A stretch of DNA of 64,000 bases from Planctomycetia bacterium (GTDB taxonomy: Bacteria > Planctomycetota > Planctomycetia > Pirellulales > JACPPG01): NCBI GenBank assembly GCA_016191115.1, contig JACPPG010000055.1, positions 25,018 through 89,017 of the forward strand, given 5' to 3'. Below the pieces are notes generated by a model. The model did no database searches. It saw only the letters and a list, made by a program, of their open reading frames with translations, and had not been told where the DNA came from. Positions 1 through 15,950 of this stretch are shown here, in pieces. Position 1 is the stretch's first letter, and each line of letters opens with the position of its first letter. Position numbers and translations under genes: made by a program.

Positions 1-58
1 CCGCAGTGCGAGAGGCGGCGTTGCAGACGGCGGATTCGGTCGAAACGGGGCGGGGGCA

Positions 59-271: not shown

Positions 272-380
272 AGAAGACGAAGGACAGGCCGCGTTGCGTG
301 AGCGTTGCGTTGCGTAGCGTAGAAATGCCCGCTTTTCCCGTGTCGGACGCGAATCAGCGTTGCGTTGCGGGTTGCGTTTC

Positions 381-1832: not shown

Positions 1833-1960
1833 GAAAGGGCTCCATTTGGATCGGGCCAGCCCAGGCGCGCGGCGGCCAAATGGAGAAACCGGACCGCGCC
1901 CCAGGGCTGCGTGGCGGCCGGTTTGCAACCCGGCCATGCCGTCCCGGTGCTCGTACTTTA

Positions 1961-2479: not shown

Positions 2480-2877
2480 TACTGCCCCCGAGCCCCCCTG
2501 GGGTTATTGCCAAAATCAATTGGGAATGTTCGGTGGGGGCAAGCGCAGCCCCACAGAATTTGCGGCCCCGGCGCAAAGGCCCCACCAGCCTCCCAGGCGT
2601 TTCGGGACGTTCTGGCATCCGACGGCCCCACTGCCCACTATGCCGTGATTCTACCACAAGGGCGCCAACTCCGTCTGCCGCGTCGCTCGCAGGTTGCGGA
2701 CGGCCAAAGTGGACGGACCGCGCCTCCCACAGCAACGTAGGCCACAATCCGTCAAATTCTGGTTGCGACGGATTGCGATTCGCTGCGAATACGCGCGTGG
2801 ACGCATAGGCGCGGGCAACGTAAAGGCTGGCTACGACACTCTGGGCGTGACGGGCGTAAGGCGCCGTCCTGCATGCC

Positions 2878-3603
2878 TCATCGCGGCCGTTGGTAGGCGA
2901 TCTCGCGGAGCAGCTCTCGCTGCTCGCGGACATCCTCTGCTACGTCAATGGCGAGCTGGATGAGTTCGGCAATAGCAAAGCAGGATACGGCCCACGCCGC
3001 TCCAAAGAACAGCCCTATTCCGACTAGCTGCGCATCGGGTCTGCGCCCTTCGAGCAACGGATACGCCACAAATACAAGTAACGTCACAATGACCACCAGC
3101 GTCGCCGATATGCGGAAAATTGAAGCAACGATGTGCAGCGCGCGAAACCGTGGGCTTCGCTGTCGCGCGACGGTGGCGACGCGGCTGGCGTCACTCGTAT
3201 CGGCTGTCGATTTATTTGAGACAGGGCCTTCATGGGCTTGGCCGACTGCTACTGGCGCTGGCCCACGGTTCGTGCGATCGCGTTCGCTTCCAGGCAATGG
3301 CGGTGGTAGGGACGGCTTGCCGTCCAGGGCCGGCGCGACCGCCATGACCGCCGATCGTTTGGCGTCGTTGACCTGCGGTTTGGCCGGCACGACCGCTGCC
3401 GATATCTCGTGGGCTGCGATCGGCTGAGTAGCCTTGACGACTAAACCCTGCACCTGCGACGCGCTGACCCATTTGCCTTCGGCGCTCCTGCGGATCAACG
3501 TGTCCGGGCCGATGGTCCCCCTCTCAGCTTTTGCCTTGAGTTCGGCAGCCGACACCGGTCCGACCATTTCGCCCATGACTTGGAAATACCACTCGCTGGC
3601 CAT
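2878..3603 (-). CDS. GYF_2 (DUF4339)-type domain membrane protein
   Basis: The N-terminus WYFQVMGEMVGPVSAAELKAKAERGTIGPDTLIRRSAEGKWVSASQVQGL matches the GYF_2 pattern (W-Y/F..x..GP.s..eL......G.i..dtlvw..g...W..a..v..L). The C-terminal part has two hydrophobic helices (ATLVVIVTLLVFVAYPLL, GIGLFFGAAWAVSCFAIAELI). Confidence 0.7.
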   Translation of the reverse strand: MASEWYFQVMGEMVGPVSAAELKAKAERGTIGPDTLIRRSAEGKWVSASQVQGLVVKATQPIAAHEISAAVVPAKPQVNDAKRSAVMAVAPALDGKPSLPPPLPGSERDRTNRGPAPVAVGQAHEGPVSNKSTADTSDASRVATVARQRSPRFRALHIVASIFRISATLVVIVTLLVFVAYPLLEGRRPDAQLVGIGLFFGAAWAVSCFAIAELIQLAIDVAEDVREQRELLREIAYQRPR

Positions 3604-3762
3604 TGGTCTCGCCCTCCACAGCTTGCCGTGCGGATTGCAGCACTACGAGTATCGACAGCGGTAAGCGCGATATCAAGCAACCCCTATCGCGTGCCACGCC
3701 GGGCGCCGCACGATTGTTTTGACTGCCGGCTTGTTGTAGGATCGCACGCAAACGCGGTCACG

Positions 3763-4473
3763 ATGGCCAACCCTGCGACGGTCTCTCTCCGTTTTGACAG
3801 AATGTGCATCCGCCTTCGTACTTGCGCCGCGACCGGTTTTGTCCTGATGACGCTCTCGCTCTCTGGTTGCTCGGGCTGCACGCAGAAGTCCGATCCGCGG
3901 ACTCCTGAGCCAGAGCCGCGGCCCAGCGCCTCGACCACCGCTGAGCCCGTTGAGAAGCCAATCGAGCAACCGAAGGGGCAGGATGAAGCAGTCGCCCAGG
4001 ATACCAGCGGATCACCGCCAGGCGATTCCAGCGACGCGGCCCAGCAGGACGACGCGGGTGAGGCAGGAAGCGCGACCGAAGAGAGCGGTAATGCTCGGCC
4101 TGCGCGATCGACCGAATCCGGCAAATCGTCGGGGGTGGCGTCGATTCCAGTCGATGCCAATGACAATTCGGGGGGTGGCGGTGAGCCCGCAACCGGCAAG
4201 TCCCCACCGGGCGGCCCGAAAGACGCTGCGACAGCGCGCCGGCAGGCGACAAAGGCGCTTGACCGTGCCGAGAAGGCAGCAGGCTCCGGAGATTTCGGTC
4301 GTGCGTTTCAGGAAAGTGTCACAGCCTGGCGAAGTGTTTTGCCCTTTCGTGCTGACCCCCAGTGCAAGTCGCTCGCCTCTTCAGCCGAGCAGAAGATGAA
4401 ACAATATGCGGAAGCTGCAAATTCTGCGGTTCCCGAAACGCCGAGCAGCGCCAAGCCGCTCTCGGTGAAATGA
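3763..4473 (+). CDS. putative lipoprotein, low-complexity acidic/Pro-rich with helical C-terminus
   Basis: Internal ATG at 3763 (alternative at 3802). Signal peptide plus lipobox FVLMTLSLSGC, then a Pro/Glu/Ser/Asp-rich linker and a helical C-terminal segment. The upstream part of the track ORF (from 3580) overlaps the start of the minus-strand gene. Confidence 0.5.
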   Translation: MANPATVSLRFDRMCIRLRTCAATGFVLMTLSLSGCSGCTQKSDPRTPEPEPRPSASTTAEPVEKPIEQPKGQDEAVAQDTSGSPPGDSSDAAQQDDAGEAGSATEESGNARPARSTESGKSSGVASIPVDANDNSGGGGEPATGKSPPGGPKDAATARRQATKALDRAEKAAGSGDFGRAFQESVTAWRSVLPFRADPQCKSLASSAEQKMKQYAEAANSAVPETPSSAKPLSVK

Positions 4474-4543
4474 CGCCGTCTTTTTCCGCTGGGATTCCCC
4501 GAAAAGTCGCCGCTATGTGGGGCTGCCCCGTGCGGCAAAATGC

Positions 4544-4571
4544 TTGAACCGCGCCCTCAAGCAAGTAGGAT
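4544..4571 (+). promoter_or_regulatory. candidate sigma70-like promoter for the GTPase operon
   Basis: TTGAAC (4544-4549), 16 nt, TAGGAT (4566-4571) in the 218-bp gap upstream of the operon. Weak match to consensus. Confidence 0.2.
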
Positions 4572-4598
4572 AGAGGGGCTCTTTTCCACCTTATCCAT

Positions 4599-4618
4599 CT
4601 GTATTGTCCTGTATTGTC
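4599..4618 (+). repeat. perfect tandem 10-bp direct repeat CTGTATTGTC x2, possible operator
   Basis: CTGTATTGTC at 4599-4608 and again at 4609-4618, read directly. It lies between the candidate promoter and the first ATG (4692) of the operon. Confidence 0.9.
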
Positions 4619-4691
4619 AGGCGGGCTCATTCAGATCGCGGGACGCAGCGATGCGATAGTGGACGACGCGGGCCGACTCCCAACGGAGAGC

Positions 4692-6065
4692 ATGATGGGC
4701 CAGGGGATGAATCGCTCTTCGATTCCCATTCAGTTGCGCGTCACGTGCCCGCATTGCTGGAGCCGCTTTGCGGCCGAAGACGCGCTATGGATTTCGCAGC
4801 ATCCGGACCTTGTTGGCGATCCGCGTCTTGGGACCGATCAGCAGCAGCGATTCCTTCCCACACGCTTCACCGTCGAAGGTGCAGCGATCGACTCCCGCGG
4901 GTTTGCCTGCCACGGATTGGCCTGTCCCAAGTGTCACCTGACCGTGCCTCGGGCGCTCTTCGAGATGGAGCCTCTCTTCATCTCGATTCTGGGCGCGCCC
5001 TCGTGCGGCAAGTCGTACTTTCTTGCCGCCATGTCGTGGCAGCTCCGCAAGACGCTCCCACACTCGTTCTGTATGGCCTTCAGCGACGCCGACCCGGCCA
5101 TGAACCATTACCTCAACGAGTACGAAGAGATTCAGTTCCTCAACCCGAATCAGGACCAGCTCGTCGCCATACGCAAGACCGAAGAGCAAGGCGACCTGTA
5201 CGACACCGTTTTGTACGGCGAGCAGGCGATCCGCTTCCCGCGCCCGTTCATCTTCGCGCTCCGTCCGTTGGAAGGTCACGTGAATTACGGTTCGTCAGCG
5301 CGAATCTCCAAGGGACTCGCGCTCTACGACAATGCGGGCGAAAGCTTCCTGCCGGGCAGCGACACCGCGGCCAGCCCTGTCACGCGACACCTGGCCCTCT
5401 CCCGTGCGCTGATGTTCCTGTTCGATCCGACGCAGGACCGCAGGTTCCGCGAAGCGTGCCGTGGCAAGACAGACGACCCGCAAATGCAGGAGCGATCCGC
5501 CCGGCTTGACCGCGAGCGGCCCGTTCGCCAGGACACGATTCTGCTGGAGGCAGCCGATCGCGTTCGCCGCTATGCCGGGCTGGCCCAAGCGGCCAAGCAC
5601 TCGCGACCCTTGATCGTTGTGGTGACCAAATACGACTGCTGGGCGTCGCTATTGGACAATGAACCGCTCGACGATCCGTGGGTACAAGGCAAACGCCGAC
5701 CCTCATGTGCTCTGGACAAGGAAGTGATTCAGGAGCGATCGCAAAAGCTTCGCAAAGTGCTCTGGCAACTGACGCCCGAAATCGTCGCCGCGGCCGAGGG
5801 GTTTGCTCAGCAGGTGATCTACATCCCAGTCAGCGCCATCGGACGCAGCCCCGAGAGCGACCCGCAAACCGGCGCGCTCGGTATCCGGCCGCGCGACATT
5901 CATCCCCGCTGGGCCGAAGTGCCGCTTCTGTACTTCCTGGCTCATTGGTGTGAGGGAATGATCCCCTACCGCAAGCCGAAGACGCACCGCATTGGGCCTG
6001 ACGATGACAACGACACGGGCACGGTGCCCTTCGGTGCGGCACGGAATCGCCGAGAGACGGCGTGA
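4692..6065 (+). CDS. zinc-ribbon + P-loop GTPase (TRAFAC-like), operon gene A
   Basis: CPHC (4746-4757) and CPKC (4923-4934) form a ribbon. G1/Walker A is GAPSCGKS (4992-5015), G3 is DNAG in LYDNAGE (5328-5339), G4 is TKYD in VVVTKYD (5625-5636), and there is a G5-like PVSAIG. No TM segment. Start is uncertain: TTG 4614, or ATG 4692/4695/4707. Confidence 0.8.
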   Translation: MMGQGMNRSSIPIQLRVTCPHCWSRFAAEDALWISQHPDLVGDPRLGTDQQQRFLPTRFTVEGAAIDSRGFACHGLACPKCHLTVPRALFEMEPLFISILGAPSCGKSYFLAAMSWQLRKTLPHSFCMAFSDADPAMNHYLNEYEEIQFLNPNQDQLVAIRKTEEQGDLYDTVLYGEQAIRFPRPFIFALRPLEGHVNYGSSARISKGLALYDNAGESFLPGSDTAASPVTRHLALSRALMFLFDPTQDRRFREACRGKTDDPQMQERSARLDRERPVRQDTILLEAADRVRRYAGLAQAAKHSRPLIVVVTKYDCWASLLDNEPLDDPWVQGKRRPSCALDKEVIQERSQKLRKVLWQLTPEIVAAAEGFAQQVIYIPVSAIGRSPESDPQTGALGIRPRDIHPRWAEVPLLYFLAHWCEGMIPYRKPKTHRIGPDDDNDTGTVPFGAARNRRETA

Positions 6066-9000
6066 CGATGATCCAGGAAATCTACTACACGTCCGCCCCC
6101 CGCGGTCTAAAGGCTGGCAGCCGAGGGTTCTGCACGGTCGTCAGCACGGCGGGCATGGCCAAGAACCTGGCCGACCGGCTGGAATCGCTTAGCGGATACC
6201 GTCACCTCTTCGGCCCGCAGGACCCGCAGGCGCCGCTGAATCCGGTCGTCTACTCGCACCTGCGGCTGGCAGTGGGAGGACGGCAGTACCACGTCCTCTC
6301 GCGCATCTGCGACGCGGGGCTCGACTATACGCAGCGGACCAACAAGTTTGCTCACCATGTCGTCCTAGATACTGCTGATCTGCCGGCCGGAGGTCCCGCG
6401 TGGCTCTTGTCCTTGCCCGGCTTCGTGCAGGCGACGTGGGACGGCGAGACCCGCACGCTGCCGGGCGGCCGGCGTCCGCCGTCGGGCGACGCACAGGCCG
6501 GAGTGTGCCGCGCTTGGCAACAATTGACCGGCGATGCCGGGTGGGGAGGGGCGCTTGCGGAAACAGCGCTGCCTGGATCGAACCGTCGGGCGGTCGTGGT
6601 CTTCGCACCAGGCATGGACATGTTGCAGTTGGTTGCCGAGGCCCTCGCCCTTCTATCGCCGGAGCAGCGCTGGGAGGTCACGTTCTCCACATATTTCACG
6701 AAGCTGCCGCCGGGCATCGATTGCAAATGGCGGTTCGTGGTCGAAGGTTCGCCGGAGGCCGCTGCCGCCCGGCCGACGCCACAAACGCTGGTCATCAACC
6801 TCTGCTCCAAGCAATCCGCCCCAGCGGCTAGCGCGCTAGCGGTGGCGGCCAGAACGGGCGTTGCACCGAAGTTGTCGGCCGCTCCGGTTTCCGGGTTTCC
6901 CGGCGACGAGCATCCAATGCCTGCCGAGCTTGGCGGCGATACCATCGACGAAGCCGATGAACTCGGGCTTGCGCTACGGCCAGGCGAGAGCCGTAGCGTT
7001 CGTGCACCGGCTGCGGCCAATGTCGGATCGGCGGGCAGTCGCGGGTATGACGTGGGACCCCCGCCGCTGCCGGGCGTGCAACTGGATCGGCTTGGCGCGC
7101 CAACTTCGCGACGCCGATTCGAGAAAAAAAGACCGTGGGGCCTCATTACCGCAGTCGTTGCCCTCTTCGCGGCGGTGGCTGGTGCCGGAATCACGGGTGC
7201 CGTGCTCCTCAGCAAAGGGGCACCTGAGCTTACGAGAAGCAATGAACAGGCCACTCCGGCATCCGCCGGACGTGGAACGCCGAAGGGCGCAGACGTTACG
7301 GACATTGTTCTCACGATTACACCGGTCGCAACACCGATTAACGCTGCCAACGCGATCGGCGCGTCGGCAAGCGGCACAGCCGAGCCTGGCGCCAGCGTCA
7401 GTGTCACGTGCACCGACGACGCAAATCAAAAGACCGACCCCTGCGTCGCGACGGCCGACTCATCTGGCAAATGGACCGCAACCGCTATCGATCTAAGGAG
7501 CCTCAAGGACGGTATGATCACTTTCACCGCTGCTGCTAAAAATGCAGCCGGAAACACTGCTCAGACTAGCGCGACCGCGACCAAGGACGCCGCAGCCCCG
7601 ACAATCTCCATCGCGCCGCTCGCACATCCGATCAATAGGGAGAATGCCGCAAGTGTGTCAGTAAGCGGCACGGCCGAGGCAAACGCAAGTATTTCGTTGA
7701 TAGCCACCGACACCGCAAGTCACAAGAGCGGGCCAAGCACTACTATGGTGGACTCGTCGGGCAAGTGGCACGTGGCCAACGTTAATCTGAACAGTCTCGA
7801 CGACGGGAAGATCACCTTCATGGCTACGGCCGCCGATGCCGCTGGAAACAAGAAGGCGGACAGCATTGAAGCGACCAAGGACACCACACTCCCAACCGTC
7901 GAGATCGCCACGGTTACAACAATCATCAGCGCAGCAAATGCCAAGAACGCGGCCGCTTCCGGCACAACGGAGCCGGGCGCAAGCATCACGATCGTGGCCA
8001 GTGACAGCGAAAATGCACAAAGCCCAATGCGCACGGCGACCGTCGACTCAGGCAACTGGTCAGTGGATGGCATCGACGTGAGCAGTCTCGCCGATGGCGA
8101 AATCAGTTTCGCGGCTACGGCCACAGATAGTGCCGGAAACCATGCCACCGCGACGCGCGCGGTTAAAAAGGCGGGCAATCCGTTCGTTGGTCTACCCGAT
8201 GCTCTTCCGATTCCTCCTTTCGCGAGCAAGAATGACTGTCAAATCCACAACGTCATGGTCTCAGAGAGTCAATTGTCATTGACCATTGATGGTCAAGGGA
8301 TCGTTCAAGATCGGCTAAGCATCTATTGCAAGCGCGACTCACACACAGAGCGCCCGACATGGGGTGTGTACTTTTCTGGGAAAGAAGGAAATGTGGGCGT
8401 GCTTGGTGATGACCCAACCAGAATTGCTCGTTTTGTATTAGACGCAGGAACGCTGAGCTTCTCTTGGGACGCCCGCGTCACGCCCGAGTTCGATTTGCGG
8501 AATTGCGTTCTGATTCTGAGCAGCGAGGGGAACACCTATCCCCTACAACTTCGGTCGGCGGAGTCAAGGTCGGCGCTTTCTGTCCAAAATCTGAAGGATG
8601 ACAACGTCGCTGCGGAAATTGCGCTCGATTCCATGCCGCCCTTTCAGCGGCTAAGGATTCGAGTCAATGGCGTTCGATCGAATGCCAGTGAGCCACTTCA
8701 GGGGCAGACGAAGTCGACAGCGCGGCCGGATCGGGCCGCGGTGGTGGTTCGTTACTCGCTGCAAGACGTACTACAGACGGTTGACGGTATTCGTGCCGCT
8801 CCTCCACCGAAGGAACTGAGACCGCAGACACGCGACGCTTTTGCAGATCGGCTCATGGATGAAATCCGCAAATCCTTCGCCGAGTATGAGCAGTCGGTTG
8901 TGCTGCTCCTGGAACTAGGGCAGGCAAAGAACCGACCGTCGGTTGTTCAGGTGAGGATGCGTTTTGGCAAGGTCACGGGTCGGGCTGTCGATGCCATTTC

Positions 9001-9322
9001 GGACGAAACTATTGACCAGATGTCCAACATCGGTTTTCAGCGGTTACAACCACAAGAAATTAACAAAAGGGCCGGTGCGTTGGCGAGTGAGGTGCTCGGC
9101 GCAGTGCTGAGAATCGATCAGGAAGCAAAAACACGGGACAAATTGCCGGTTTTTCATGACGCGCTTCTAAAAAAAGCGGCCCGCGGTGTGCATGCGCATG
9201 CGCTCCTCGTACTCGTCGACAAGCTCATTGCCTCGCTGGTCGACTATGAGGTGTACATGCCTTTCGAGGAATCGAAGAGTCGCGTGGTATTGGTCCGAAG
9301 CGACGTGAAGAGTGAGTTGTAA
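6062..9322 (+). CDS. bitopic membrane protein: GAP1-N-like cytoplasmic domain, TM, 3 Ig-like repeats, unknown C-terminal domain (operon gene B)
   Basis: The GTG start overlaps the gene A stop (GTGA); an alternative ATG is at 6068. The N-terminus MTMIQEIYYTSAPRGLKAGSRGFCTVVSTAGM follows the (Q)xxYTS..GL..G..GF....S.G opening I associate with GTPase-associated protein 1 N-domains. Next come a Pro/Ala linker, one TM (RPWGLITAVVALFAAVAGAGITGAVLLS, ~7129-7212), three ~96-aa repeats and a ~380-aa C-terminal region. Confidence 0.8.
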   Translation: MTMIQEIYYTSAPRGLKAGSRGFCTVVSTAGMAKNLADRLESLSGYRHLFGPQDPQAPLNPVVYSHLRLAVGGRQYHVLSRICDAGLDYTQRTNKFAHHVVLDTADLPAGGPAWLLSLPGFVQATWDGETRTLPGGRRPPSGDAQAGVCRAWQQLTGDAGWGGALAETALPGSNRRAVVVFAPGMDMLQLVAEALALLSPEQRWEVTFSTYFTKLPPGIDCKWRFVVEGSPEAAAARPTPQTLVINLCSKQSAPAASALAVAARTGVAPKLSAAPVSGFPGDEHPMPAELGGDTIDEADELGLALRPGESRSVRAPAAANVGSAGSRGYDVGPPPLPGVQLDRLGAPTSRRRFEKKRPWGLITAVVALFAAVAGAGITGAVLLSKGAPELTRSNEQATPASAGRGTPKGADVTDIVLTITPVATPINAANAIGASASGTAEPGASVSVTCTDDANQKTDPCVATADSSGKWTATAIDLRSLKDGMITFTAAAKNAAGNTAQTSATATKDAAAPTISIAPLAHPINRENAASVSVSGTAEANASISLIATDTASHKSGPSTTMVDSSGKWHVANVNLNSLDDGKITFMATAADAAGNKKADSIEATKDTTLPTVEIATVTTIISAANAKNAAASGTTEPGASITIVASDSENAQSPMRTATVDSGNWSVDGIDVSSLADGEISFAATATDSAGNHATATRAVKKAGNPFVGLPDALPIPPFASKNDCQIHNVMVSESQLSLTIDGQGIVQDRLSIYCKRDSHTERPTWGVYFSGKEGNVGVLGDDPTRIARFVLDAGTLSFSWDARVTPEFDLRNCVLILSSEGNTYPLQLRSAESRSALSVQNLKDDNVAAEIALDSMPPFQRLRIRVNGVRSNASEPLQGQTKSTARPDRAAVVVRYSLQDVLQTVDGIRAAPPPKELRPQTRDAFADRLMDEIRKSFAEYEQSVVLLLELGQAKNRPSVVQVRMRFGKVTGRAVDAISDETIDQMSNIGFQRLQPQEINKRAGALASEVLGAVLRIDQEAKTRDKLPVFHDALLKKAARGVHAHALLVLVDKLIASLVDYEVYMPFEESKSRVVLVRSDVKSEL
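7316..8182 (+). repeat. three tandem ~96-aa Ig-like coding repeats inside gene B
   Basis: Units at 7316-7603, 7604-7897 and 7898-8182. Shared pattern: I.....PI...NA...s.SGTAEpgAS.......d.........t..aDSSGkW......l.SL.DG.ItF.A.A.DaAGN.a....a.KD...PT. Confidence 0.85.
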
Positions 9323-9325
9323 GCG

Positions 9326-12283
9326 ATGCTCGACCATCAAAGAATTGTTGACGACATCCGCAGCGCCATGTACTCGGTGACGCCCGAGTCGTTGGACATG
9401 CTGCGCTTGGCCGTCGCAGATTATTCGGTCGCATGTGATGAGACGAACGAGCGGTTGCGGCAATGCAATTCGCTCCTCAAGCAGGGACTGCGGAGTGAGG
9501 CGATCCAGGCGTGCGAGGTCGAGCCGAACCTGCTCGACGTAGTGGCAACGCTTGACTTTGCTGAGCGCGACCAACTGGTGGCTATTACCCAGCAAAATGG
9601 CCTCGCGGTTCCGCCAGGATTGTCGATGGAGGTGGCGTCGGAACTCAATGAGGCGTACGCGATCCAGGCGCCCCTCGAATCGCTGTTGCGTCAGCACCGT
9701 CTGCTGGCAATCGCGCGCGGGCCGCTGGCCCCGAGGCTCAAGACGCTGCGGTCGATCGCGCGTCTCGACAAGCACAACTTCGTCTGGCAGGACGATGTCC
9801 GGCTCTTTGAAAAGGAACGTCTCAAGGAGATTCAGCGCGAGGCGAATCAGGCGGCAAAGGCGGGCGAAGTGGCCGTGCTCGACTCTCTGGCCGAGGAGTT
9901 GGCCGACAAGCAGTGGCAGCAAAAACCTCCGAAGGAGCTAGTCCAGGGAGTCGGTGAAATCGCGCATAGGGTCCGCCACAAGCAGACACGCAAGGAGCTT
10001 GAGGAGTTGGAGCCCGCGCTCAACAGCGCCTTTGCTGCATTCGATGTCGAGGAGGGGCGACGCTTGCGCGGGCGATGGAACGAATGCGTCGAGATTCTCC
10101 CACTCGAAGGCGACCCGCTCGCCGACCGTGTCGCGCCGGCGCTCGACTGGCTGCGCGAACAAGACGAGCAGGAAGAGCGATTGGGGAATCATGAGGCGTG
10201 CGTGGGCGCTTTGGAGTTTGCGCTTGATCGCCATGACCACACCATCGCCGAGCTGGAGCGCTTGTACCATGCGGCCGTGCGTCACGGCCACGATCTGTCG
10301 TCGTTCCTGGAGCGGCGCTATCAGGCCAAGATCAAGGGGTTGGAGTTTGCGGCGCGGCGGCGATCGGTGCTCATCATCACGTCGGTAGTGAGTGTCGTTG
10401 TGCTAGTCGCCGGCGTGCTGGCTGCAATGGCCTGGATGCATCACCGCTCCAATGAACTCGCCGGTCACGTGGCCGCGCTCTCTCAGTTGATTACCGACGG
10501 GAAGCTGCACGAATCGCAAAAGTACGCCGACGAATTGACTCAGTCGTCACCGCGGATCGCACACAGCCCAGAAATCGAGAAACTGGTGGTTCGACTCGAC
10601 GAGGATGTGAAGAAGGAACAGTCGCGGCAAGAGCAGTTCCAGCATGCGATTGCGCGGGTGAAGGCCGCCGGTTTTGACGAGCCGGATCACGATGCCCTGA
10701 AACGCGCCGAAGAGTCGGCTAAGACTCCGGCGGAGCGCACCGAGGTGGCCGAAGCGAAGGAGAGCATCGCCAAAGCGTTGCGAGAGAGGCAGGCAGAACG
10801 GGACAAGGCATTTTTGGCGGACATTGACGGCCTGGCCGACAAGGTCAAACAACTGGAAGGGGAGTTAGAGAAGTCCGGCGCGGACGATGATGCAGCGAGC
10901 GTGCAGCACTTTGCTCAGCTTCGAGCCGAGCTATCGGCGTTGAACGCCCGCGGGGAGCTGGTGACGCCGGCGGTGCGAAATCAGTTGAAACCATTGTCGA
11001 CGCGCCTGTCGGCATTGGAGGAAATGGTTTCACGCCATGCGAAGGCACAGGCGGCGCTCAATCAACTGATGAAGGCTGTTGGCGACCCCCAGGCGTACCA
11101 GATGGCCCTGCAAGATTACGTCAAACAACATCCCGAAAGTCCCCACGCCGCGTCCTTTCAGCATGTGAGCGCCGAAGCGCCGTTGTGGGAAGGCATGCAA
11201 CGGTGGGATGCTTTCGCCGTTGACTTGGGAAAAGCGGCCCGCGACGGCCTGACGCCCGCCGAAGGGAAAACGCTTCAAGACGGGGCTGACAAGCTGTTGA
11301 AGGAACTCGGCCAGTTTCCGCAGGCCGGGACGCTGCGAACCGCGCTTCCGCATCTGAAATCCGTTGTCGCCCGAATCGGCAGCGACGGCCCGCTCCACAA
11401 GCCGCTTGTGACGCTCTTCAACGATCGGCTGATTCATAACGTTCAGATGATTGAACACAAGGACGGAAGGCGCTGGTACACGGACAAGGAGCCAAGTGTT
11501 CGCGCGGACGGCGTGGACATCGAATTCCTGGCCGGGTTCGACTACTCGCATAAGCACAAGCCTCTTACATCTGGTGAAATCGCCAGTCGAGATCGAGCGC
11601 CGCAAGCGGTCGTCGCCGACAAGGTTCTTGCGGAACTCGGAAAGCTGGACGCAGCCACGCGCGAGGGAGAGTGGGAGCAGCACTTCGCCAACATCTTGGT
11701 TGCAATTTGCGAAGAACAGCGCATGGAACCGATCCTCAAGATTGCCCTGTTGAAGCGAGTAGTCCCAGTCGCCTGCGAGGGGTCCGACGTGTTGCGCTTG
11801 GCGCTGGCGAAACATCAGGAGGCACTGGAAGGCTCGGCCGTCAACGCGCTAGCGCCTTGGATGCTGCCGGAGTTTCCGGAGAAGGACAAAGATGCCAGGA
11901 AGGCCGTCCTTGAAGAGCGAGGACGCGCCAAGGGCGAACTGGAGGCCCTCGCCGACCTGCCCACTACTGTTCAGGTCGCGGCGAAAAAGCCCCCGCCCGT
12001 TCTCCGGCTGAACGAATATCGGTGGATCGGTCTGCTGGTCAAAGACTCCAAGGGCGGATGGACATGCATGATCCGTCCTAATGCTACGACCTCTCCAGGT
12101 GCCTTGTATGTCGTCGAGCAGCCAGCGGGACAGAAGCCCGTGAACATCTCGCCTATCGGCCACCTCGAAGACGGGAAGCCGCACCTTGATTCATTCAAGC
12201 CGGCCCTCCTCATGGAAGGGCGTCCGATCTATTTGCTGATGACTGCCGGCAAGGACCAGCAGGCCGCAGCGGTTCATCGATAG
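9326..12283 (+). CDS. 985-aa all-helical bitopic membrane protein with extensive coiled coil (operon gene C)
   Basis: ATG lies 3 nt after the gene B stop. About 345 aa of helical cytoplasmic region, then a positive-inside TM (ARRRSVLIITSVVSVVVLVAGVLAAMAWM), then ~600 aa with charged heptad-like stretches (EDVKKEQSRQEQFQHAIARVKAA, ADKVKQLEGELEKSG...). No enzymatic motif seen. Confidence 0.75.
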   Translation: MLDHQRIVDDIRSAMYSVTPESLDMLRLAVADYSVACDETNERLRQCNSLLKQGLRSEAIQACEVEPNLLDVVATLDFAERDQLVAITQQNGLAVPPGLSMEVASELNEAYAIQAPLESLLRQHRLLAIARGPLAPRLKTLRSIARLDKHNFVWQDDVRLFEKERLKEIQREANQAAKAGEVAVLDSLAEELADKQWQQKPPKELVQGVGEIAHRVRHKQTRKELEELEPALNSAFAAFDVEEGRRLRGRWNECVEILPLEGDPLADRVAPALDWLREQDEQEERLGNHEACVGALEFALDRHDHTIAELERLYHAAVRHGHDLSSFLERRYQAKIKGLEFAARRRSVLIITSVVSVVVLVAGVLAAMAWMHHRSNELAGHVAALSQLITDGKLHESQKYADELTQSSPRIAHSPEIEKLVVRLDEDVKKEQSRQEQFQHAIARVKAAGFDEPDHDALKRAEESAKTPAERTEVAEAKESIAKALRERQAERDKAFLADIDGLADKVKQLEGELEKSGADDDAASVQHFAQLRAELSALNARGELVTPAVRNQLKPLSTRLSALEEMVSRHAKAQAALNQLMKAVGDPQAYQMALQDYVKQHPESPHAASFQHVSAEAPLWEGMQRWDAFAVDLGKAARDGLTPAEGKTLQDGADKLLKELGQFPQAGTLRTALPHLKSVVARIGSDGPLHKPLVTLFNDRLIHNVQMIEHKDGRRWYTDKEPSVRADGVDIEFLAGFDYSHKHKPLTSGEIASRDRAPQAVVADKVLAELGKLDAATREGEWEQHFANILVAICEEQRMEPILKIALLKRVVPVACEGSDVLRLALAKHQEALEGSAVNALAPWMLPEFPEKDKDARKAVLEERGRAKGELEALADLPTTVQVAAKKPPPVLRLNEYRWIGLLVKDSKGGWTCMIRPNATTSPGALYVVEQPAGQKPVNISPIGHLEDGKPHLDSFKPALLMEGRPIYLLMTAGKDQQAAAVHR

Positions 12284-12306
12284 TGCGCAACGCAGGATCG
12301 ATCAAA

Positions 12307-13212
12307 ATGGCAGACCAGTTGTACATTCGGGTTCGCGGCCGCGTGCTCGGCCCGTACGATCGAGACAAGCTCCAATCGCTGGTCAAGCGCGGCCAACTTG
12401 GGCGCCTTCACGAGGTCTCTGAGGACGGCGTCGCTTGGGTGCGGGCAACGAACTTCCCTGAGATATTCGTGATGCCCTCGGTCGCGGTAGCCGGCCCCTC
12501 GGTGAAGGCACCACCCGCTGCCAGTGAAGTCCCTGGGTACGCGATCGAGCCAGACACGTCCGCGGCGGCTCCGACGGGCCAGACCTGGTACTACACGAGC
12601 GGCGGTGCCCAGCTTGGGCCAGTCGATTTCGCGTTTCTGCAAAAGCTGGCTGCGACGGGTCAACTTGGTCCATCCAATTTGGTGTGGACCGAAGGCATGG
12701 CCGAGTGGGCCGCACCTGGCGCCGTGCCCGGCTTGAACGCGCCGCCCGCCACGGGCCGGTCTGCTACGGCTAACGTTGCCACCGAGTCAGGGAACGCCGT
12801 CACGCCTGGTGTGTGTCGGGCGCTCGCCGGATCGCGGCGCTGGATTCTCTTTCTCGCCATCGTGACGTTTGTCTACTGCGGATTCTATGCCGTCTTGGGG
12901 GTCTGGGCGGTCGTATTCGGCTTTTCGTCGGACATTGCGGCTATCGTAGGTGAGGGTCTCTTCTTCCTCTCGACCGCTGCGGTCGGTGCCGCTGCCGGAG
13001 TGCTGCTGCTCTTCTATGCCAATCGGATTGGGGTCCTACAGTTCCGCCGCGATTTCCAGCAGTTGGAATCGACGCTTGAGGCGGCGCGCTGGTTTTGGGT
13101 ATATGCGGGCATCATCCAGATTGCCTTCCTGATATTCCTGTCGGCGTTGAGCGTCTGGGCGATGGCCGTCGGCGGCGCAACGGTGCGGGCGAGCGCCCGA
13201 TCGCTGTTCTGA
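12307..13212 (+). CDS. double GYF_2-domain polytopic membrane protein (operon gene D)
   Basis: ATG at 12307; the track ORF starts at a GTG at 12283 overlapping the gene C stop. Two GYF_2-like modules (LYIRVRGRVLGPYDRDKLQSLVKRGQLGRLHEVSEDGVAWVRATNF and TWYYTSGGAQLGPVDFAFLQKLAATGQLGPSNLVWTEGMAEWAAPGAVPGL) are followed by ~4 hydrophobic helices. Confidence 0.75.
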   Translation: MADQLYIRVRGRVLGPYDRDKLQSLVKRGQLGRLHEVSEDGVAWVRATNFPEIFVMPSVAVAGPSVKAPPAASEVPGYAIEPDTSAAAPTGQTWYYTSGGAQLGPVDFAFLQKLAATGQLGPSNLVWTEGMAEWAAPGAVPGLNAPPATGRSATANVATESGNAVTPGVCRALAGSRRWILFLAIVTFVYCGFYAVLGVWAVVFGFSSDIAAIVGEGLFFLSTAAVGAAAGVLLLFYANRIGVLQFRRDFQQLESTLEAARWFWVYAGIIQIAFLIFLSALSVWAMAVGGATVRASARSLF

Positions 13213-13236
13213 GGGATCGTTCGGAGCTAGCGCACA

Positions 13237-14103: not shown

Positions 14104-14105
14104 AA

Positions 14106-14927
14106 ATGGCCAGACGCCACCGATCCTCGCCCTTCTCGCTATTCAGCTTTCAGGACATCATCACGTCCGTCACTGGCATCATCATCCTTCTGACGCTCAT
14201 CTTGGCCTTGGAGCTGGTGACTCGCAAACCGTCTGCACAGGGGGGCAGCTCTCCTGACAATTCCGAACAGTTGAGGGAAAGCATCGCGGAAGCCGCCGCA
14301 GAGAGCGCGCAGCTCGAAGAAGCGCTTGAGAAGCGAACTGCTAGGGTGCAAGAACTGGCGGCCGCCTCTCCACAGCAGCTTGCCCGCGAGAAACGCGACG
14401 TTGAACAGGAAGTACAGCGTCTTGAAGCGGAGGTCCAGCAACTCGTGCGGCAGGCAGAAACCACCTCGCGCGAGAAAAAAGAGGCCGTCGCAAAAAGTGA
14501 GGATCGCGAACTCGACCGTAAGGAACTGAAGCAGCGTGAGGCGACATTGCGATCCTTGGCCGAAAAACTCAAGGACTTGAAGCGCAAAGATCACCTCATC
14601 TACAACCTCAGTCGCGACGCGGGGAAGCGGGCTTGGCTGGTCGATGTCTCGCCAGACAAGTTGGCCGCGGCGCCGCTCGGTGAGGCAGTGCCACCTACTG
14701 TATTTGAGGAGTCGTCGGCTTTCGCGCGGGCTCGCTCGTTCATCGATTTCACCAAGCGGCGAGACCCAAAGACCGAGTATTTTGTCTTCCTTATCAGACC
14801 GGCTGCCGTCGAGACGTTTGCCGACATTCGCTTGAAGCTTGAGGGTTCGGGCTTTGATATCGGGTTTGATGTTATCGGTTCGGGCCAGACCGTTCTTGAC
14901 CCAAAGACGGGGGCTTCGATCCGATGA
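14106..14927 (+). CDS. ExbD/TolR-like single-pass subunit with long coiled-coil insert (operon gene F)
   Basis: Basic N-terminus MARRHR, then FSLFSFQD(17)IITSVTGIIILLTLILAL, with the Asp preceding the TM as in ExbD D25/TolR D23. About 130 aa of coiled coil follow (QLEEALEKRTARVQELAA...VQRLEAEVQQLVRQ). The C-terminal YFVFLIRPAAVETFADIRLKLEGSGFDIGFDVI resembles the ExbD periplasmic beta-alpha-beta unit. Confidence 0.65.
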   Translation: MARRHRSSPFSLFSFQDIITSVTGIIILLTLILALELVTRKPSAQGGSSPDNSEQLRESIAEAAAESAQLEEALEKRTARVQELAAASPQQLAREKRDVEQEVQRLEAEVQQLVRQAETTSREKKEAVAKSEDRELDRKELKQREATLRSLAEKLKDLKRKDHLIYNLSRDAGKRAWLVDVSPDKLAAAPLGEAVPPTVFEESSAFARARSFIDFTKRRDPKTEYFVFLIRPAAVETFADIRLKLEGSGFDIGFDVIGSGQTVLDPKTGASIR

Positions 14928-15835
14928 GTAGACGCAAGCGCCAACCCGAAAGCAGTCTGGAGCTGCTGCTGGACACGATTTGCAACACGTTCGGTGGCAT
15001 CCTCTTCTTGTCGATCTTGATCGTCGTCCTGTTGCAGATGACGGGCGGTGCACGATCGAAGACGGCCGAGCCGACCTTGTCGGCTGCTGAGTTGGCGGAT
15101 TTGCGTCGGCAGCACGCCGAGGCACTCCGGCATTTGGAGACAGTGCAGGCTGCGATTGACAAGCAGCGAGACCTGCTCGACCAGTTCGCGACTGCGGAGA
15201 ATGTGGACCTGCTCCGGGAGCTGCAAGCCCTGGAGCAAACGCGGGAGTCGCTGCGGTCGCACCGTGCGGCGACCATCTCCCAAATCGCCGAAGCACAGGC
15301 CAGCGTCGATGCCGTTGAGAGTGACCTCGCCGAACTTGACCAGCATCAGAAGGAACTGGAGCAGCAAGTCGCCGTCGCCGAACGATTGCTTCAGGCCGAG
15401 GTTGCGTCTCGGACCACCGCAGCCCGCCTGCCTCGTCAGCACGCTACCGGGAAACAAGAAGTCGGGGTCTTGGTCCGTTACGGCCGGCTGTACCTTTGGC
15501 ACAAATACGATTCCCACGGGCTTCGGCTCGGTCTTAATTTCGACGACATGGTGGTCGTCAAAGAACATGGGACGCGACTGGAAACTGCGCCGAAGCCGTT
15601 TGCCGGCGTGGTCTTGGAGAAGGGAGTCGACGCCGAGCGACGAATCCGGGAGAAGCTCTCCGGCTTCGATCCACGCACGATGTATGTAGCAGTGGTCATT
15701 TGGGAAGACTCGTTTGCGCAGTTCCAGATTCTAAAGAACGTGCTGGTCGAGCGCGGATTAGAGTATCGTCTCATGCCGACCGAAGAAGGCACCGAGATCA
15801 GCGACCACGGCGGCACCGGCAGCCGCGTCCAGTGA
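14924..15835 (+). CDS. second ExbD/TolR-like single-pass subunit with coiled-coil insert, paralog of gene F (operon gene G)
   Basis: ATGA overlap with gene F. MSRRKR...SLELLLD(17)TICNTFGGILFLSILIVVLLQM, then coiled coil (LRHLETVQAAIDKQRDLLDQ...ELDQHQKELEQQVAVAERLLQ). The C-terminal MYVAVVIWEDSFAQFQILKNVLVERGLEYRLMP is ExbD-like. Confidence 0.65.
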   Translation: MSRRKRQPESSLELLLDTICNTFGGILFLSILIVVLLQMTGGARSKTAEPTLSAAELADLRRQHAEALRHLETVQAAIDKQRDLLDQFATAENVDLLRELQALEQTRESLRSHRAATISQIAEAQASVDAVESDLAELDQHQKELEQQVAVAERLLQAEVASRTTAARLPRQHATGKQEVGVLVRYGRLYLWHKYDSHGLRLGLNFDDMVVVKEHGTRLETAPKPFAGVVLEKGVDAERRIREKLSGFDPRTMYVAVVIWEDSFAQFQILKNVLVERGLEYRLMPTEEGTEISDHGGTGSRVQ

Positions 15836-15950
15836 CGGGAACGCGATTCGGGAAGGCGAGGACGCCCTCAAAGCCGAAGGGCACAAAAACGCCAAGCAAG
15901 AGGCCCGCCGGATCGAAGCCGAGCCGCTGGACACGGCCTACCTGGACCAG

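What the first reader, a model, noticed from the sequence alone, without database searches (positions are those of the whole stretch)
6062..9322. GAP1-N-like cytoplasmic head coupled through one TM to three Ig-like repeats; lower-GC exterior part
The N-terminal ~240 aa begin with a (Q)xxYYTS..GL..G..GF...(S/T).G signature. I associate this with the N-domains of GTPase-associated protein 1 (GAP1) of conflict systems. That is a memory-based call, not a search result. A single TM (~7129-7212) places three ~96-aa repeats (7316-8182) and a ~380-aa unknown domain outside the cytoplasm. This is the layout expected of a surface or periplasmic sensor that reports to a cytoplasmic GTPase.

The repeats are divergent copies with conserved SGTAEpgAS / DSSGkW / DG.ItF.A.A.DaAGN cores and variable residues elsewhere, as expected for binding modules.

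Hand counts of two 60-nt lines in the exterior-encoding part gave 52% GC (7501-7560) and 50% GC (8281-8340). A line from a DUF1501 gene (26221-26280) gave 73%. This suggests compositional heterogeneity or a foreign origin.
Basis: partly seen in the sequence, partly recalled or inferred. Interest (0 to 1): 0.7.

Follow-up and report, generated by a model that had tools for sequence, protein, structure and literature searches.

The report
Membrane-spanning partner protein of a GTPase switch
This gene encodes a membrane protein of a planctomycete whose conserved inner head pairs with a neighbouring GTPase and whose fast-evolving outer part sits on a three-repeat stalk; it belongs to a gene cassette predicted by computer in 2020 and, as far as the searched literature shows, never tested in the laboratory.

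Summary
ORF 6062-9322 (+) is real, with a likely start at ATG 6068. It carries GAP1-N2 (Pfam E 1.1e-28) and GAP1-M (1.6e-16), one TM helix (aa 359-384), three 96-aa repeats, a 380-aa C-terminal domain, and the lowest GC in the window.

It lies in a four-gene cassette found in all 13 related planctomycete loci examined:
- zinc-ribbon GTPase (DO-GTPase2-like)
- GAP1
- a 985-aa single-TM protein
- a double-GYF protein with a TM-rich tail

Kaur et al. (eLife 2020) described this subtype, so it is a new member of a known, experimentally untested kind.

- The repeats are Ca_tandemer/Big_13 units of giant adhesins. Only this protein among 114 relatives has them, so they look like an inserted stalk.
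- The "unknown" C-terminal domain is the family's own post-TM domain. It is 14-23% identical among relatives whose heads are 57-75% identical. Foldseek found no analogue in PDB or BFVD.
- Lower GC and GC3 in the post-TM part occur in all ten complete relatives, so they do not mark a one-off foreign insertion.
- The head model (pLDDT 95) most resembles TagF and the DENND1B DENN domain, a GTPase-regulator fold that paper does not mention.

Function remains inferred.

The parts
3763..4473 (+). Small conserved gene upstream of the GTPase (236 aa as called in the public record); no known domain
   Evidence: Called as a gene in the public contig (offset 3067 to window coordinates). 42.5% identical over 221 aa to the gene in the same position in L012/L013. 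No Pfam hit.
4695..6065 (+). Zinc-ribbon GTPase, a divergent DO-GTPase2; its stop codon overlaps the GTG at 6062
   Evidence: Invariant CPHC...CPxCH, GxPxxGK[ST], YDNAGE, TKxD and PVSA motifs in 11 orthologues. 10 of 11 orthologues hit PF19993 DO-GTPase2, best E 3.2e-10; the window copy scores 22.7 bits, below the cut-off of 27. Encoded upstream of the GAP1 gene in 12 of the 13 related loci; L006 begins too close to GAP1 to show it; directly adjacent in most, about 2 kb upstream in L003.
6068..9322 (+). GAP1 (GAP1-N2 type), a single-pass membrane protein of 1084 aa; this is the finding itself
6068..6463 (+). GAP1-N2 domain (aa 3-134): alpha+beta lobe with b-b-a-b-b-b-a order, cytoplasmic
   Evidence: Pfam PF20013 E 1.1e-28. 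AlphaFold model with pLDDT 95.
6509..6802 (+). GAP1-M domain (aa 150-247): alpha/beta lobe, cytoplasmic
   Evidence: Pfam PF20014 E 1.6e-16. Model. The two lobes together match TagF and DENND1B in Foldseek.
6803..7135 (+). Pro/Ala-rich cytoplasmic linker with a YDVGPPPLPG motif, ending in the polybasic RRRFEKKR just before the TM helix
   Evidence: PPP occurs within 70 aa before the TM in 59 of 107 homologues. PPPLPG occurs only twice in the six-frame translation of the window.
7136..7213 (+). Single transmembrane helix (aa 359-384), oriented N-in/C-out
   Evidence: KD 2.34. 104 of 114 homologues have exactly one TM at this position. Charge asymmetry is +4.5 before versus 0.0 after.
7316..8182 (+). 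Three tandem Ig-like repeats of about 96 aa, of Ca_tandemer/Big_13 type; an exterior stalk and a lineage-specific insertion
   Evidence: NF033510 Ca_tandemer E 4.8e-25, 87.7 bits against a cut-off of 50, in 3 stretches. Big_13 E 4e-16 in 3 stretches. Repeats are 48-51% identical to each other. 43-46% identical to repeats of giant repetitive proteins P0002-P0005. Absent from the other 113 GAP1-N2 relatives.
8183..9319 (+). Family-typical post-TM domain (aa 708-1086): beta-rich part, helical hairpin and a C-terminal beta-hairpin. It is hypervariable and holds the GC minimum of the window
   Evidence: A local iterative profile unites it with the post-TM region of 81 other homologues out of the 107 post-TM sequences searched; its own score against that profile is E 1.9e-34. 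14-23% identity to relatives. Only 2 weak hits among 1.84 billion representatives. AlphaFold model with pLDDT 78 and pTM 0.75. No Foldseek analogue in PDB or BFVD. GC 0.542.
9326..12283 (+). Third conserved component: a 985-aa protein with one TM helix (aa 348-366), a helical N-terminal part of about 345 aa and a coiled-coil-rich C-terminal part of about 620 aa; no known domain
   Evidence: Homologue directly downstream of GAP1 in all 13 related loci at 23-54% identity. TM. No Pfam, NCBIfam or PADLOC hit.
12283..13212 (+). Protein with two GYF domains and a C-terminal TM-rich region (probable start ATG 12307)
   Evidence: GYF_2 E 4e-23 in 2 stretches. At least 3 hydrophobic segments. Present after the 985-aa gene in 9 of the 13 related loci; three of the other four (L001, L008, L010) end within or just after that gene, and L011 showed no hit. 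Matches the planctomycete subtype described in PMC7159879.
13237..14103 (+). MotA/ExbB-like channel protein; linked to the cassette only in this lineage
   Evidence: PF01618 E 4.7e-11. Weak ZorA hits, E 1e-4. 87% identical and syntenic in L012/L013. Not found in L001-L011.
14106..15835 (+). Two paralogous proteins (273 and 303 aa), each with an N-terminal TM helix preceded by a conserved Asp and followed by coiled coil. Possible partners of the MotA/ExbB-like protein
   Evidence: TM segments and sequences. 57% and 63% identical, with identical lengths, in L012/L013. Only weak coiled-coil-type hits, ZorB1 E 0.013.
2878..3603 (-). Divergently transcribed protein with one GYF domain, a PPPLPG motif and two TM helices. 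Association with the cassette is uncertain
   Evidence: GYF_2 E 4.1e-13. Sequence, TM, motif. Present beside the cassette in the public contig. No positional homologue in the related loci.

Best explanation
The gene encodes the GAP1 component of a GAP1-N2-type, DO-GTPase-centred membrane cassette of Planctomycetota, in the subtype that carries a double-GYF/TM-rich protein.

The protein is a single-pass N-in/C-out membrane protein.
- **Cytoplasmic head.** The head (GAP1-N2 plus GAP1-M) is highly conserved and two-lobed. I infer that it binds and regulates the zinc-ribbon GTPase encoded just upstream.
- **Exterior part.** This is the family's own fast-evolving domain of about 380 aa. I infer that it is the specificity-determining, ligand-sensing part.
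- **Stalk.** In this organism alone, three Ca2+-adhesin-type Ig-like repeats have been inserted between membrane and ectodomain. I infer that they act as a rigid stalk that lifts the ectodomain further from the membrane.
- **Output.** I infer that engagement of the ectodomain changes the state or clustering of the head and so the nucleotide state or localisation of the GTPase. The GTPase would then act on the two other conserved membrane partners: the 985-aa single-TM protein and the double-GYF protein. The GYF domains plausibly dock on proline-rich motifs such as PPPLPG in the GAP1 linker.

Shown here: domain content, topology signals, synteny, the conservation contrast and the fold resemblance. 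Inferred: every step of signalling, and whether the purpose is defence or conflict as proposed by Kaur et al. 2020.
For: - **Family membership.** GAP1-N2 scores E 1.1e-28 and GAP1-M 1.6e-16, both far above the Pfam cut-offs. About 800 homologues were found, the named ones from Pirellulales, Gemmataceae and Isosphaeraceae.
- **GTPase partner.** The gene upstream overlaps by 4 nt. G1, G3, G4 and G5-like motifs and a four-Cys zinc ribbon are invariant. 10 of 11 orthologues match DO-GTPase2.
- **Cassette.** The order GTPase, GAP1, 985-aa protein, GYFx2-TM is kept, as far as each contig reaches, in 11 genome loci and in the 2 contigs of the closest relative. This fits the published description of the planctomycete subtype (PMC7159879).
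- **Topology.** One TM in 104 of 114 homologues. Net charge +4.5 before and 0.0 after the TM, with the same asymmetry in 104 of 107. The post-TM repeats are of the Ca_tandemer type.
- **Sensor-like contrast within one gene.** Against the closest relative, the GTPase is 82% identical, MotA 87%, the 985-aa protein 54% and the GAP1 N-terminal part 58-59% over about 400 aa. The ectodomain gives no BLAST match better than 24% over 74 aa. Across relatives, heads are 57-75% identical and ectodomains 14-23%.
- **Ectodomain homology.** It is nevertheless homologous across the family.
- **Head fold.** The model has pLDDT 95. Its best PDB matches are TagF (E 9.6e-4, prob 0.99, 246 columns) and the DENND1B DENN domain solved in complex with Rab35 (E 1.9e-3, prob 0.96). 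FLCN and a C9orf72-SMCR8 complex chain appear lower down.
- **Stalk insertion.** The repeats occur only in this protein among 114 GAP1-N2 relatives. The closest relative, P0006, has the same cassette without them.
Against: - No experiment exists for any GAP1 system in the searched literature. Only one paper mentions GAP1-N2.
- The window's own GTPase scores below the Pfam cut-off for DO-GTPase2 (22.7 against 27 bits).
- No GAP1-C domain and no FNIII-repeat partner were detected by sequence. The paper lists both for GAP1 and for GAP1-N2 systems in general.
- No recognisable toxin or effector domain is present, and no PADLOC defence model matches the four core proteins.
- The fold match of the head is moderate: TM-score 0.38-0.41, rmsd 6.5-9.7 A and E about 1e-3. 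No sequence-level link to any solved structure was found.
- Only the best 120 of about 800 homologues were inspected, so the uniqueness of the repeat insertion is relative to that sample.
Confidence: 0.6

Rival explanations
1. The cassette is a lineage-typical envelope or cell-biology signalling module of Planctomycetota, for example surface sensing, polarity, envelope remodelling or cell-cell contact. It is not a conflict or immunity system. The anatomy is the same, but the ectodomain reads a self or environmental cue.
For: - The four-gene order is kept across loci labelled Thermoguttaceae, Pirellulales, Gemmataceae and Gemmatales.
- No toxin, nuclease or protease domain is present, and no PADLOC hit was found for the core genes.
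- The head resembles regulators of trafficking GTPases and a T6SS assembly checkpoint protein, not immune sensors.
Against: - Extreme divergence is confined to the ectodomain while neighbouring genes stay 54-87% identical.
- Cassette genes have GC3 of 0.71-0.74, against 0.80 +/- 0.05 for 30 other likely genes of the window.
- In the closest relative the cassette sits between transposase, integrase and resolvase genes on one side and an Mrr-like nuclease gene on the other.
- The published analysis groups these systems with conflict systems because their components vary (PMC7159879).
Confidence: 0.25
2. The protein is mainly a membrane-anchored adhesin. The Ig-like repeats and C-terminal domain bind a surface, and the cytoplasmic head only anchors or positions it.
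For: The repeats match the Ca_tandemer model that NCBI uses for Ca2+-stabilised repeat adhesins. They are 43-46% identical to repeats of giant repetitive proteins.
Against: - There are only three repeats, and none in 113 relatives that keep the rest of the architecture.
- The head is the most conserved part and is tied by gene order to a GTPase across the related loci.
- No secretion signal is present, and the layout is a single N-in anchor.
Confidence: 0.07
3. The exterior-coding half is recently acquired foreign DNA spliced onto a native GAP1 head, which would explain the low GC.
For: - The lowest GC of the window lies in 8251-9250.
- The repeat block has no counterpart in relatives and resembles repeats of unrelated giant proteins.
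- The ectodomain has almost no detectable relatives: 2 weak hits in 1.84 billion.
Against: - The GC and GC3 drop after the TM helix is seen in all ten complete related genes. GC falls by 0.07-0.19; in L001 it falls from 0.641 to 0.450.
- The C-terminal domain is homologous to the post-TM domain of 81 other relatives and sits in the same position.
- The repeat block itself is intermediate (GC 0.597), not the most deviant part.
- Only the three-repeat insertion is a plausible separate acquisition.
Confidence: 0.08

Closest known systems
GAP1-N2-type GTPase-centric (DO-GTPase/GAP1) systems, planctomycete subtype with a double-GYF protein (Kaur, Burroughs, Iyer, Aravind, eLife 2020; PMC7159879)
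   Same: - GAP1-N2 and GAP1-M domains are present.
- The gene lies directly downstream of a zinc-ribbon GTPase.
- GAP1 carries a C-terminal TM helix and exterior beta-sandwich repeats; the paper notes cadherin domains in some members.
- A neighbouring gene has a pair of GYF domains fused to a TM-rich region.
- The host is a planctomycete.
   Different: - The exterior repeats are Ca_tandemer/Big_13, not cadherin.
- No GAP1-C and no FNIII-repeat protein are detectable by sequence.
- There is one GTPase gene, not two.
- A conserved 985-aa single-TM protein, a conserved post-TM domain, and in this lineage a MotA/ExbB-like trio accompany it. The passages of the paper that I read do not mention these.
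TagF (type VI secretion accessory protein; PDB 9t0n, 6iz8) and the eukaryotic DENN module (DENND1B-Rab35, PDB 3tw8)
   Same: Both have a two-lobed head: an alpha+beta lobe followed by an alpha/beta lobe. Foldseek gives prob 0.99 and 0.96 over 246-299 aligned columns. The N-lobe has b-b-a-b-b-b-a strand order; from my own knowledge this is the longin/roadblock order. DENN modules regulate small GTPases (PMC3521125).
   Different: - There is no sequence similarity, and TM-scores are only about 0.4.
- GAP1-M has three strands in the model, so it is at best a reduced core.
- TagF is not known to act on a GTPase.
- Neither the GAP1 paper nor the TagF preprint draws this link.

This is a resemblance of fold, not membership.
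Extender repeats of giant Ca2+-dependent repeat adhesins (NCBIfam NF033510 Ca_tandemer; Pfam Big_13)
   Same: Three tandem units of about 96 aa score above the curated cut-offs. They are 43-46% identical to repeats of 800-1900-aa repetitive proteins.
   Different: There are only three units. They are embedded in a signalling-type membrane protein between its TM helix and its own ectodomain, with no secretion signal of the kind giant adhesins use. That last point is from my own knowledge and was not tested.
MglA/MglB-type prokaryotic small-GTPase switches
   Same: A P-loop GTPase is encoded next to a dedicated partner with a roadblock/longin-like alpha+beta lobe (PMC3521125).
   Different: The GTPase family is different (DO-GTPase with a zinc ribbon). 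The partner is membrane-spanning with a large exterior part. No homology was shown.

Membership tests
GAP1 of DO-GTPase-centric systems (GAP1-N2 type) | GAP1-N2 N-terminal domain | tested here: met
   PF20013 E 1.1e-28, 100.5 bits against a cut-off of 24, aa 3-134 covering profile positions 1-134 of 139.
GAP1 of DO-GTPase-centric systems (GAP1-N2 type) | GAP1-M middle domain following GAP1-N | tested here: met
   PF20014 E 1.6e-16, 60.8 bits against a cut-off of 24, aa 150-247.
GAP1 of DO-GTPase-centric systems (GAP1-N2 type) | GAP1-C third globular domain (the paper describes GAP1 as N, M and C) | tested here: inconclusive
   No Pfam family other than GAP1-N2, GAP1-M and Ig-like repeats at E <= 0.1. 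After GAP1-M come a Pro/Ala-rich linker and the TM helix. I could not confirm that the library holds a GAP1-C model. The nine long relatives scanned and the precomputed annotations of the listed relatives also show only N2 and M.
GAP1 of DO-GTPase-centric systems (GAP1-N2 type) | Encoded directly downstream of a DO-GTPase gene | tested here: met
   The GTPase gene at 4695-6065 overlaps the GAP1 ORF. 10 of 11 orthologues hit DO-GTPase2 (best E 3.2e-10); the window copy is sub-threshold at 22.7 bits against 27. Synteny is kept in the related loci.
GAP1 of DO-GTPase-centric systems (GAP1-N2 type) | Companion protein with rapidly evolving FNIII repeats (stated for GAP1-N2 systems in general) | tested here: not met
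   No fn3-type Pfam hit in any of the cassette proteins scanned. A fold-level test of the 985-aa protein and of the beta-rich part of the ectodomain was not possible.
GAP1 of DO-GTPase-centric systems (GAP1-N2 type) | [quoted passage not shown] | tested here: met
   The 12283-13212 protein has GYF_2 E 4e-23 in 2 stretches plus at least 3 hydrophobic segments. Text of PMC7159879.
DENN module (longin + DENN + d-DENN) | Tripartite fold shared with solved DENN domains | tested here: inconclusive
DENN module (longin + DENN + d-DENN) | GEF or GAP activity on a cognate small GTPase | not testable with these tools
   Needs biochemistry, or at least a complex prediction.
Ca_tandemer / Big_13 Ig-like repeats | Tandem repeats of about 96 aa scoring above the curated cut-offs | tested here: met
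   NF033510 87.7 bits against 50, 3 stretches. PF19077 59.8 bits against 27, 3 stretches.
Known anti-phage defence systems (PADLOC-DB 2.0) | Match of any core protein to a defence-system model | tested here: not met
   No hit for GAP1, the 985-aa protein or the GYF protein. The GTPase gives only mad8 at E 0.025. The MotA-like neighbour gives weak generic ZorA hits at E 1e-4.

The most novel reading that the evidence does not exclude
The GAP1-N2/GAP1-M head is a bacterial counterpart of the DENN/longin class of small-GTPase regulators. The cassette would then be a receptor-to-GEF/GAP-to-GTPase relay across a bacterial membrane. A hypervariable exterior domain, here raised on an adhesin-type stalk, would set the nucleotide state of a zinc-ribbon GTPase through a DENN-like head. 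This would give the 'GTPase-associated protein' a concrete biochemical role and would place a DENN-like regulator with its GTPase in bacteria.
Probability: 0.3. Interest if true: 0.75.

Novelty: new member of a known kind. Interest (0 to 1): 0.45.

Why it matters
GAP1/DO-GTPase cassettes were found in roughly a thousand organisms (Table 1 of PMC7159879). In the searched literature they are known only from one comparative-genomics paper.

This locus is a clean example. It has a strongly conserved cytoplasmic head and a hypervariable exterior domain in the same polypeptide, so the specificity determinant can be swapped experimentally.

Three points go beyond the published description and make the system more testable:
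- the head's fold resemblance to TagF and DENN
- a family-wide post-TM domain for which Foldseek found no analogue in PDB or BFVD
- the family-wide drop in GC3 over that domain

If the head proves to be a GEF or GAP, this would be a bacterial outside-in small-GTPase pathway. Otherwise the locus is an ordinary member of an already catalogued family.

Tried and rejected
- **Word-index search with the C-terminal domain.** It found nothing, not even the identical protein P0001. I treat it as a failure of sensitivity, not as evidence. The exhaustive representative search and a local iterative profile replaced it.
- **Tandem Repeats Finder on 6000-9400.** The three repeats are too diverged at DNA level; only an 8-nt microrepeat was reported.
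- **PADLOC on the core proteins and neighbours.** No meaningful defence-system match.
- **Profile of the family against PDB sequences.** Only low-complexity and coiled-coil noise.
- **Foldseek of the ectodomain model against PDB and BFVD.** The best hits have TM-scores of 0.16 or less, so I take no analogue from them. The repeated adenovirus fibre-knob hits have prob <= 0.08 and I reject them as noise.
- **TagF as a recognised DENN homologue.** I recalled this from memory. Neither the 2012 DENN paper, the 2025 TagF preprint nor two literature searches support it, so the claim is dropped. Only the Foldseek result is used.
- **N-termini of P0121 and P0122.** I read them by eye as J-domain-like. 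Pfam gives no DnaJ hit at E <= 0.1, so this stays a guess.
- **Supplement of PMC7159879.** No occurrence of GYF or GAP1-N2 in the text held.
The one ORF I scanned over that position (25717-26955, minus strand) gave no Pfam hit. I did not pursue it. Only the GC value of that line was verified.
- **First local iteration script.** It timed out and was rerun.

Full report
**1. What is there**

ORF 6062-9322 on the + strand is the longest ORF of the region. An identical 1084-aa product starting at ATG 6068 is called on a public 21-kb contig (P0001). All homologue alignments start at that methionine, so 6068 is the likely start. The GTG at 6062 overlaps the stop of the upstream gene.

Pfam places four features:
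- GAP1-N2 on aa 3-134 (E 1.1e-28, 100.5 bits, cut-off 24)
- GAP1-M on aa 150-247 (E 1.6e-16)
- three Big_13 stretches (E 4e-16)
- Big_6

Other features confirmed:
- There is one strongly hydrophobic segment, aa 359-384 (KD 2.34).
- The three repeats (7316-8182) are 48-51% identical to each other with 29 invariant columns.
- The lowest 1-kb GC of the whole window (0.549, against mean 0.649 and sd 0.029) lies at 8251-9250 inside the gene.

**2. The surroundings**

The upstream gene (4695-6065) is a P-loop GTPase. In 11 orthologues the following are invariant: a CPHC...CPxCH zinc ribbon, GxPxxGK[ST], YDNAGE, TKxD and PVSA. The window copy scores just under the Pfam cut-off for DO-GTPase2 (22.7 against 27 bits), but 10 of 11 orthologues match it, with best E 3.2e-10.

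Downstream genes:
- a 985-aa protein with one TM helix at aa 348-366 and no known domain
- a protein with two GYF_2 domains (E 4e-23) and a TM-rich tail

tblastn of the window proteins against 11 planctomycete genome loci shows the order GTPase, GAP1, 985-aa protein, GYF protein wherever the contig reaches far enough. The loci are labelled Thermoguttaceae, Pirellulales, Gemmataceae, Gemmatales and 'Planctomycetia'.

In the closest relative (P0006, loci L012 and L013) eight genes are syntenic:

| Gene | Identity to window |
|---|---|
| small upstream gene | 42% |
| GTPase | 82% |
| GAP1 N-terminal part, aa 1-385 (head, linker, TM) | 59% |
| 985-aa protein | 54% |
| GYF protein | 46% |
| MotA/ExbB-like protein | 87% |
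| 273-aa TM/coiled-coil protein | 57% |
| 303-aa TM/coiled-coil protein | 63% |

The MotA/ExbB trio is not found in the more distant loci.

**3. Comparison with the literature**

The only paper in the searched library that mentions GAP1-N2 is Kaur, Burroughs, Iyer and Aravind, eLife 2020 (PMC7159879). It describes several matching points:
- GTPase-centric systems in which GAP1 is encoded downstream of a DO-GTPase
- the GAP1-N2 type in actinobacteria, firmicutes, planctomycetes and others
- GTPases with N-terminal zinc ribbons
[quoted passage not shown] The locus is thus a member of an already described, computationally predicted system. No experimental work on it was found.

**4. Topology**

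- 104 of 114 GAP1-N2 homologues have exactly one TM helix at aa 315-370, followed by 250-750 residues.
- The 17 residues before the helix carry a mean net charge of +4.5 and the 17 after it 0.0. The asymmetry holds in 104 of 107. In the window protein the preceding stretch is RRRFEKKR.
- With no signal peptide and a head tied to a cytoplasmic GTPase, the N-in/C-out reading is well supported, though not proven.

**5. The repeats**

NCBIfam assigns them to Ca_tandemer (NF033510, 'Ca2+-stabilized repeat-containing adhesin'): E 4.8e-25, 87.7 bits against a cut-off of 50, three stretches. Their best relatives are repeats of 800-1900-aa repetitive proteins, at 43-46% identity.

Among the 114 GAP1-N2 proteins inspected, only the window protein has them. 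Nine of the longest relatives show nothing but GAP1-N2 and GAP1-M. The closest relative, P0006, keeps the whole cassette without them.

I therefore read them as a lineage-specific insertion. In giant adhesins such units serve as extenders (my own knowledge, not tested here). On that basis, a stalk is a better reading than a set of binding modules.

**6. The C-terminal 380 aa**

Searches gave little:
- The word-index search returned nothing, not even self, and is discounted.
- The exhaustive search of 1.84 billion representatives gave two weak hits (E 3.4e-5 and 3.6e-4). Both are membrane proteins with other N-terminal parts that carry the same domain after their TM helix.

A local iterative profile settled the matter. 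It started from this domain and was run on the post-TM parts of the homologues. It converged on 82 of the 107 post-TM sequences searched, the window protein's own sequence among them, over nearly the full length. Shared motifs are LP..LPP, F.W, LRNC.L, LR.P and a C-terminal Y.VY...V.L hairpin.

So this is the clade's own post-TM domain. It is extremely divergent: 14-23% identity to the window copy, while the heads are 57-75% identical.

An AlphaFold model built on that alignment has pLDDT 78 and pTM 0.75. It shows a beta-rich part, helices, a long helical hairpin and a terminal beta-hairpin. Foldseek finds no analogue in the PDB (best E 0.022, TM 0.10) or among viral models. More sensitive libraries were unavailable.

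**7. The head**

The model of aa 3-273 has pLDDT 95 and pTM 0.92. It has two lobes:
- an alpha+beta lobe in b-b-a-b-b-b-a order (GAP1-N2)
- an alpha/beta lobe (GAP1-M)

The top PDB matches are as follows:

| Match | PDB | E-value | Prob | TMq | Columns |
|---|---|---|---|---|---|
| TagF, Acinetobacter baylyi | 9t0n | 9.6e-4 | 0.99 | 0.41 | 246 |
| DENND1B DENN domain, bound to Rab35 | 3tw8 | 1.9e-3 | 0.96 | 0.38 | 299 |
| TagF, Pseudomonas aeruginosa | 6iz8 | 7.6e-3 | 0.97 | 0.22 | 114 |

At lower probability, folliculin and a chain of the C9orf72-SMCR8 complex also appear.

Caveats and context:
- There is no sequence-level link.
- The GAP1 paper does not mention DENN, longin or TagF.
- The TagF preprint calls TagF's C-terminal domain unlike any characterised protein.
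- The 2012 DENN paper treats DENN/d-DENN as known only from the eukaryotic module, and derives longin domains from prokaryotic roadblock GAPs.

The resemblance is a lead, not a membership. It gives a concrete hypothesis for what the head does to the GTPase.

**8. Composition**

- The drop in GC and GC3 after the TM helix is present in all ten complete related genes. Examples are L001 (GC 0.641 to 0.450) and L004 (GC3 0.781 to 0.564).
- In the window, 30 likely genes have GC3 0.80 +/- 0.05. The four cassette genes have 0.66-0.74, and the ectodomain has 0.50-0.66 in 100-codon blocks.
- The repeat block is intermediate, at GC 0.597.

The heterogeneity is thus real but family-wide. It accompanies the fast-evolving part of the gene wherever the gene is found, and it does not mark a one-off foreign insertion here.

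The whole cassette is mildly atypical for its genome. In the closest relative it lies between transposase, integrase and resolvase genes on one side and an Mrr-like nuclease gene on the other. That would fit a mobile or conflict-type element.

**9. How it most likely works (inferred)**

- GAP1 spans the membrane once.
- The hypervariable ectodomain, here raised on three Ca2+-type Ig-like units, meets an exterior or periplasmic cue.
- The conserved two-lobed head transmits this to the zinc-ribbon GTPase, possibly as an exchange factor or activating protein.
- The GTPase acts with the 985-aa single-TM protein and the double-GYF/TM-rich protein.

One possible docking site is worth noting. The hexapeptide PPPLPG occurs only twice in the six-frame translation of the 64-kb window. 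One copy is in the GAP1 juxtamembrane linker. The other is in a divergently transcribed GYF/2-TM protein at 2878-3603. A [G/aliphatic]PPP motif precedes the TM helix in 53 of 107 homologues. This hints that GYF domains dock there. It is speculative.

Whether the output is defence, as the 2020 paper proposes, or envelope signalling cannot be decided. No effector domain and no PADLOC match were found.

**10. Verdict**

The locus is a new member of a known, purely predicted family, with a lineage-specific stalk insertion.

Beyond the passages of that paper I read, this analysis adds:
- the family post-TM domain, with no analogue found by Foldseek in PDB or BFVD
- the head's resemblance to TagF and DENN
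- the family-wide GC3 depression
- the linked MotA/ExbB-like trio

Noticed in passing
window 13237-15835 (+): A MotA/ExbB-like gene (PF01618 E 4.7e-11; weak ZorA hits) is followed by two paralogous genes of 273 and 303 aa. Each has an N-terminal TM helix preceded by an Asp (FQD-IITS..., LLD-TICN...) and then coiled coil. The trio looks like a stator or energiser module. It is syntenic with the cassette, with identical gene lengths, in the closest relative L012/L013, but absent after the cassette in L001-L011.
   Followed up: partly
window 2878-3603 (-): A divergently transcribed protein has one GYF_2 domain (E 4.1e-13), a PSLPPPLPG stretch and two TM helices. PPPLPG occurs only here and in the GAP1 linker (nt 7058) in all six frames of the window.
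   Followed up: partly
window 3763-4473 (+): A small gene (236 aa in the public call) lies just upstream of the GTPase. It is 42% identical to the gene in the same position in L012/L013 and has no Pfam match. It may be a fifth conserved component in this lineage. Its GC3 is not raised above GC1 and GC2, which is unusual for this genome.
   Followed up: partly
P0121 (aa 255-418) and P0122 (aa 332-641): The GAP1 post-TM domain also occurs behind a TM helix in two proteins with other N-terminal parts. P0122 begins with a Cys-rich zinc-ribbon-like stretch. Both have a 'DPY..WLGI....P..Y.LLG' segment that looks J-domain-like by eye but gets no Pfam hit. The domain may therefore be a module used with different cytoplasmic heads.
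   Followed up: partly
P0087 (aa 703-929): One GAP1-N2 homologue has a truncated ectodomain followed by a match (E 1.3e-34) to the first 230 aa of the 985-aa neighbour protein. A real fusion would put a presumably cytoplasmic segment outside the cell, so a frameshift, a deletion or a read-through gene call seems more likely.
   Followed up: no
L012 1-9000 and 19800-20700: In the closest relative the cassette is flanked by an rve-type transposase, a phage-integrase fragment and a resolvase-like gene on one side. On the other side are an Mrr_cat/NA-iREase1 nuclease gene and a dnstrm_HI1420 gene. This is a mobile-element or defence-island-like setting.
   Followed up: no
window 1-16000 versus 16001-64000: The first 16 kb of the window have lower GC (0.56-0.67 per kb, mostly 0.60-0.64) than the rest (mostly 0.64-0.70). 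The whole left end, not only the cassette, is compositionally distinct.
   Followed up: no
(tool behaviour): The word-index protein search with aa 708-1086 returned no hit at E <= 0.01. Yet the identical full-length protein P0001 is in that collection and was returned by the full-length query. Negative results from that tool for divergent domains should be read with care.
   Followed up: yes
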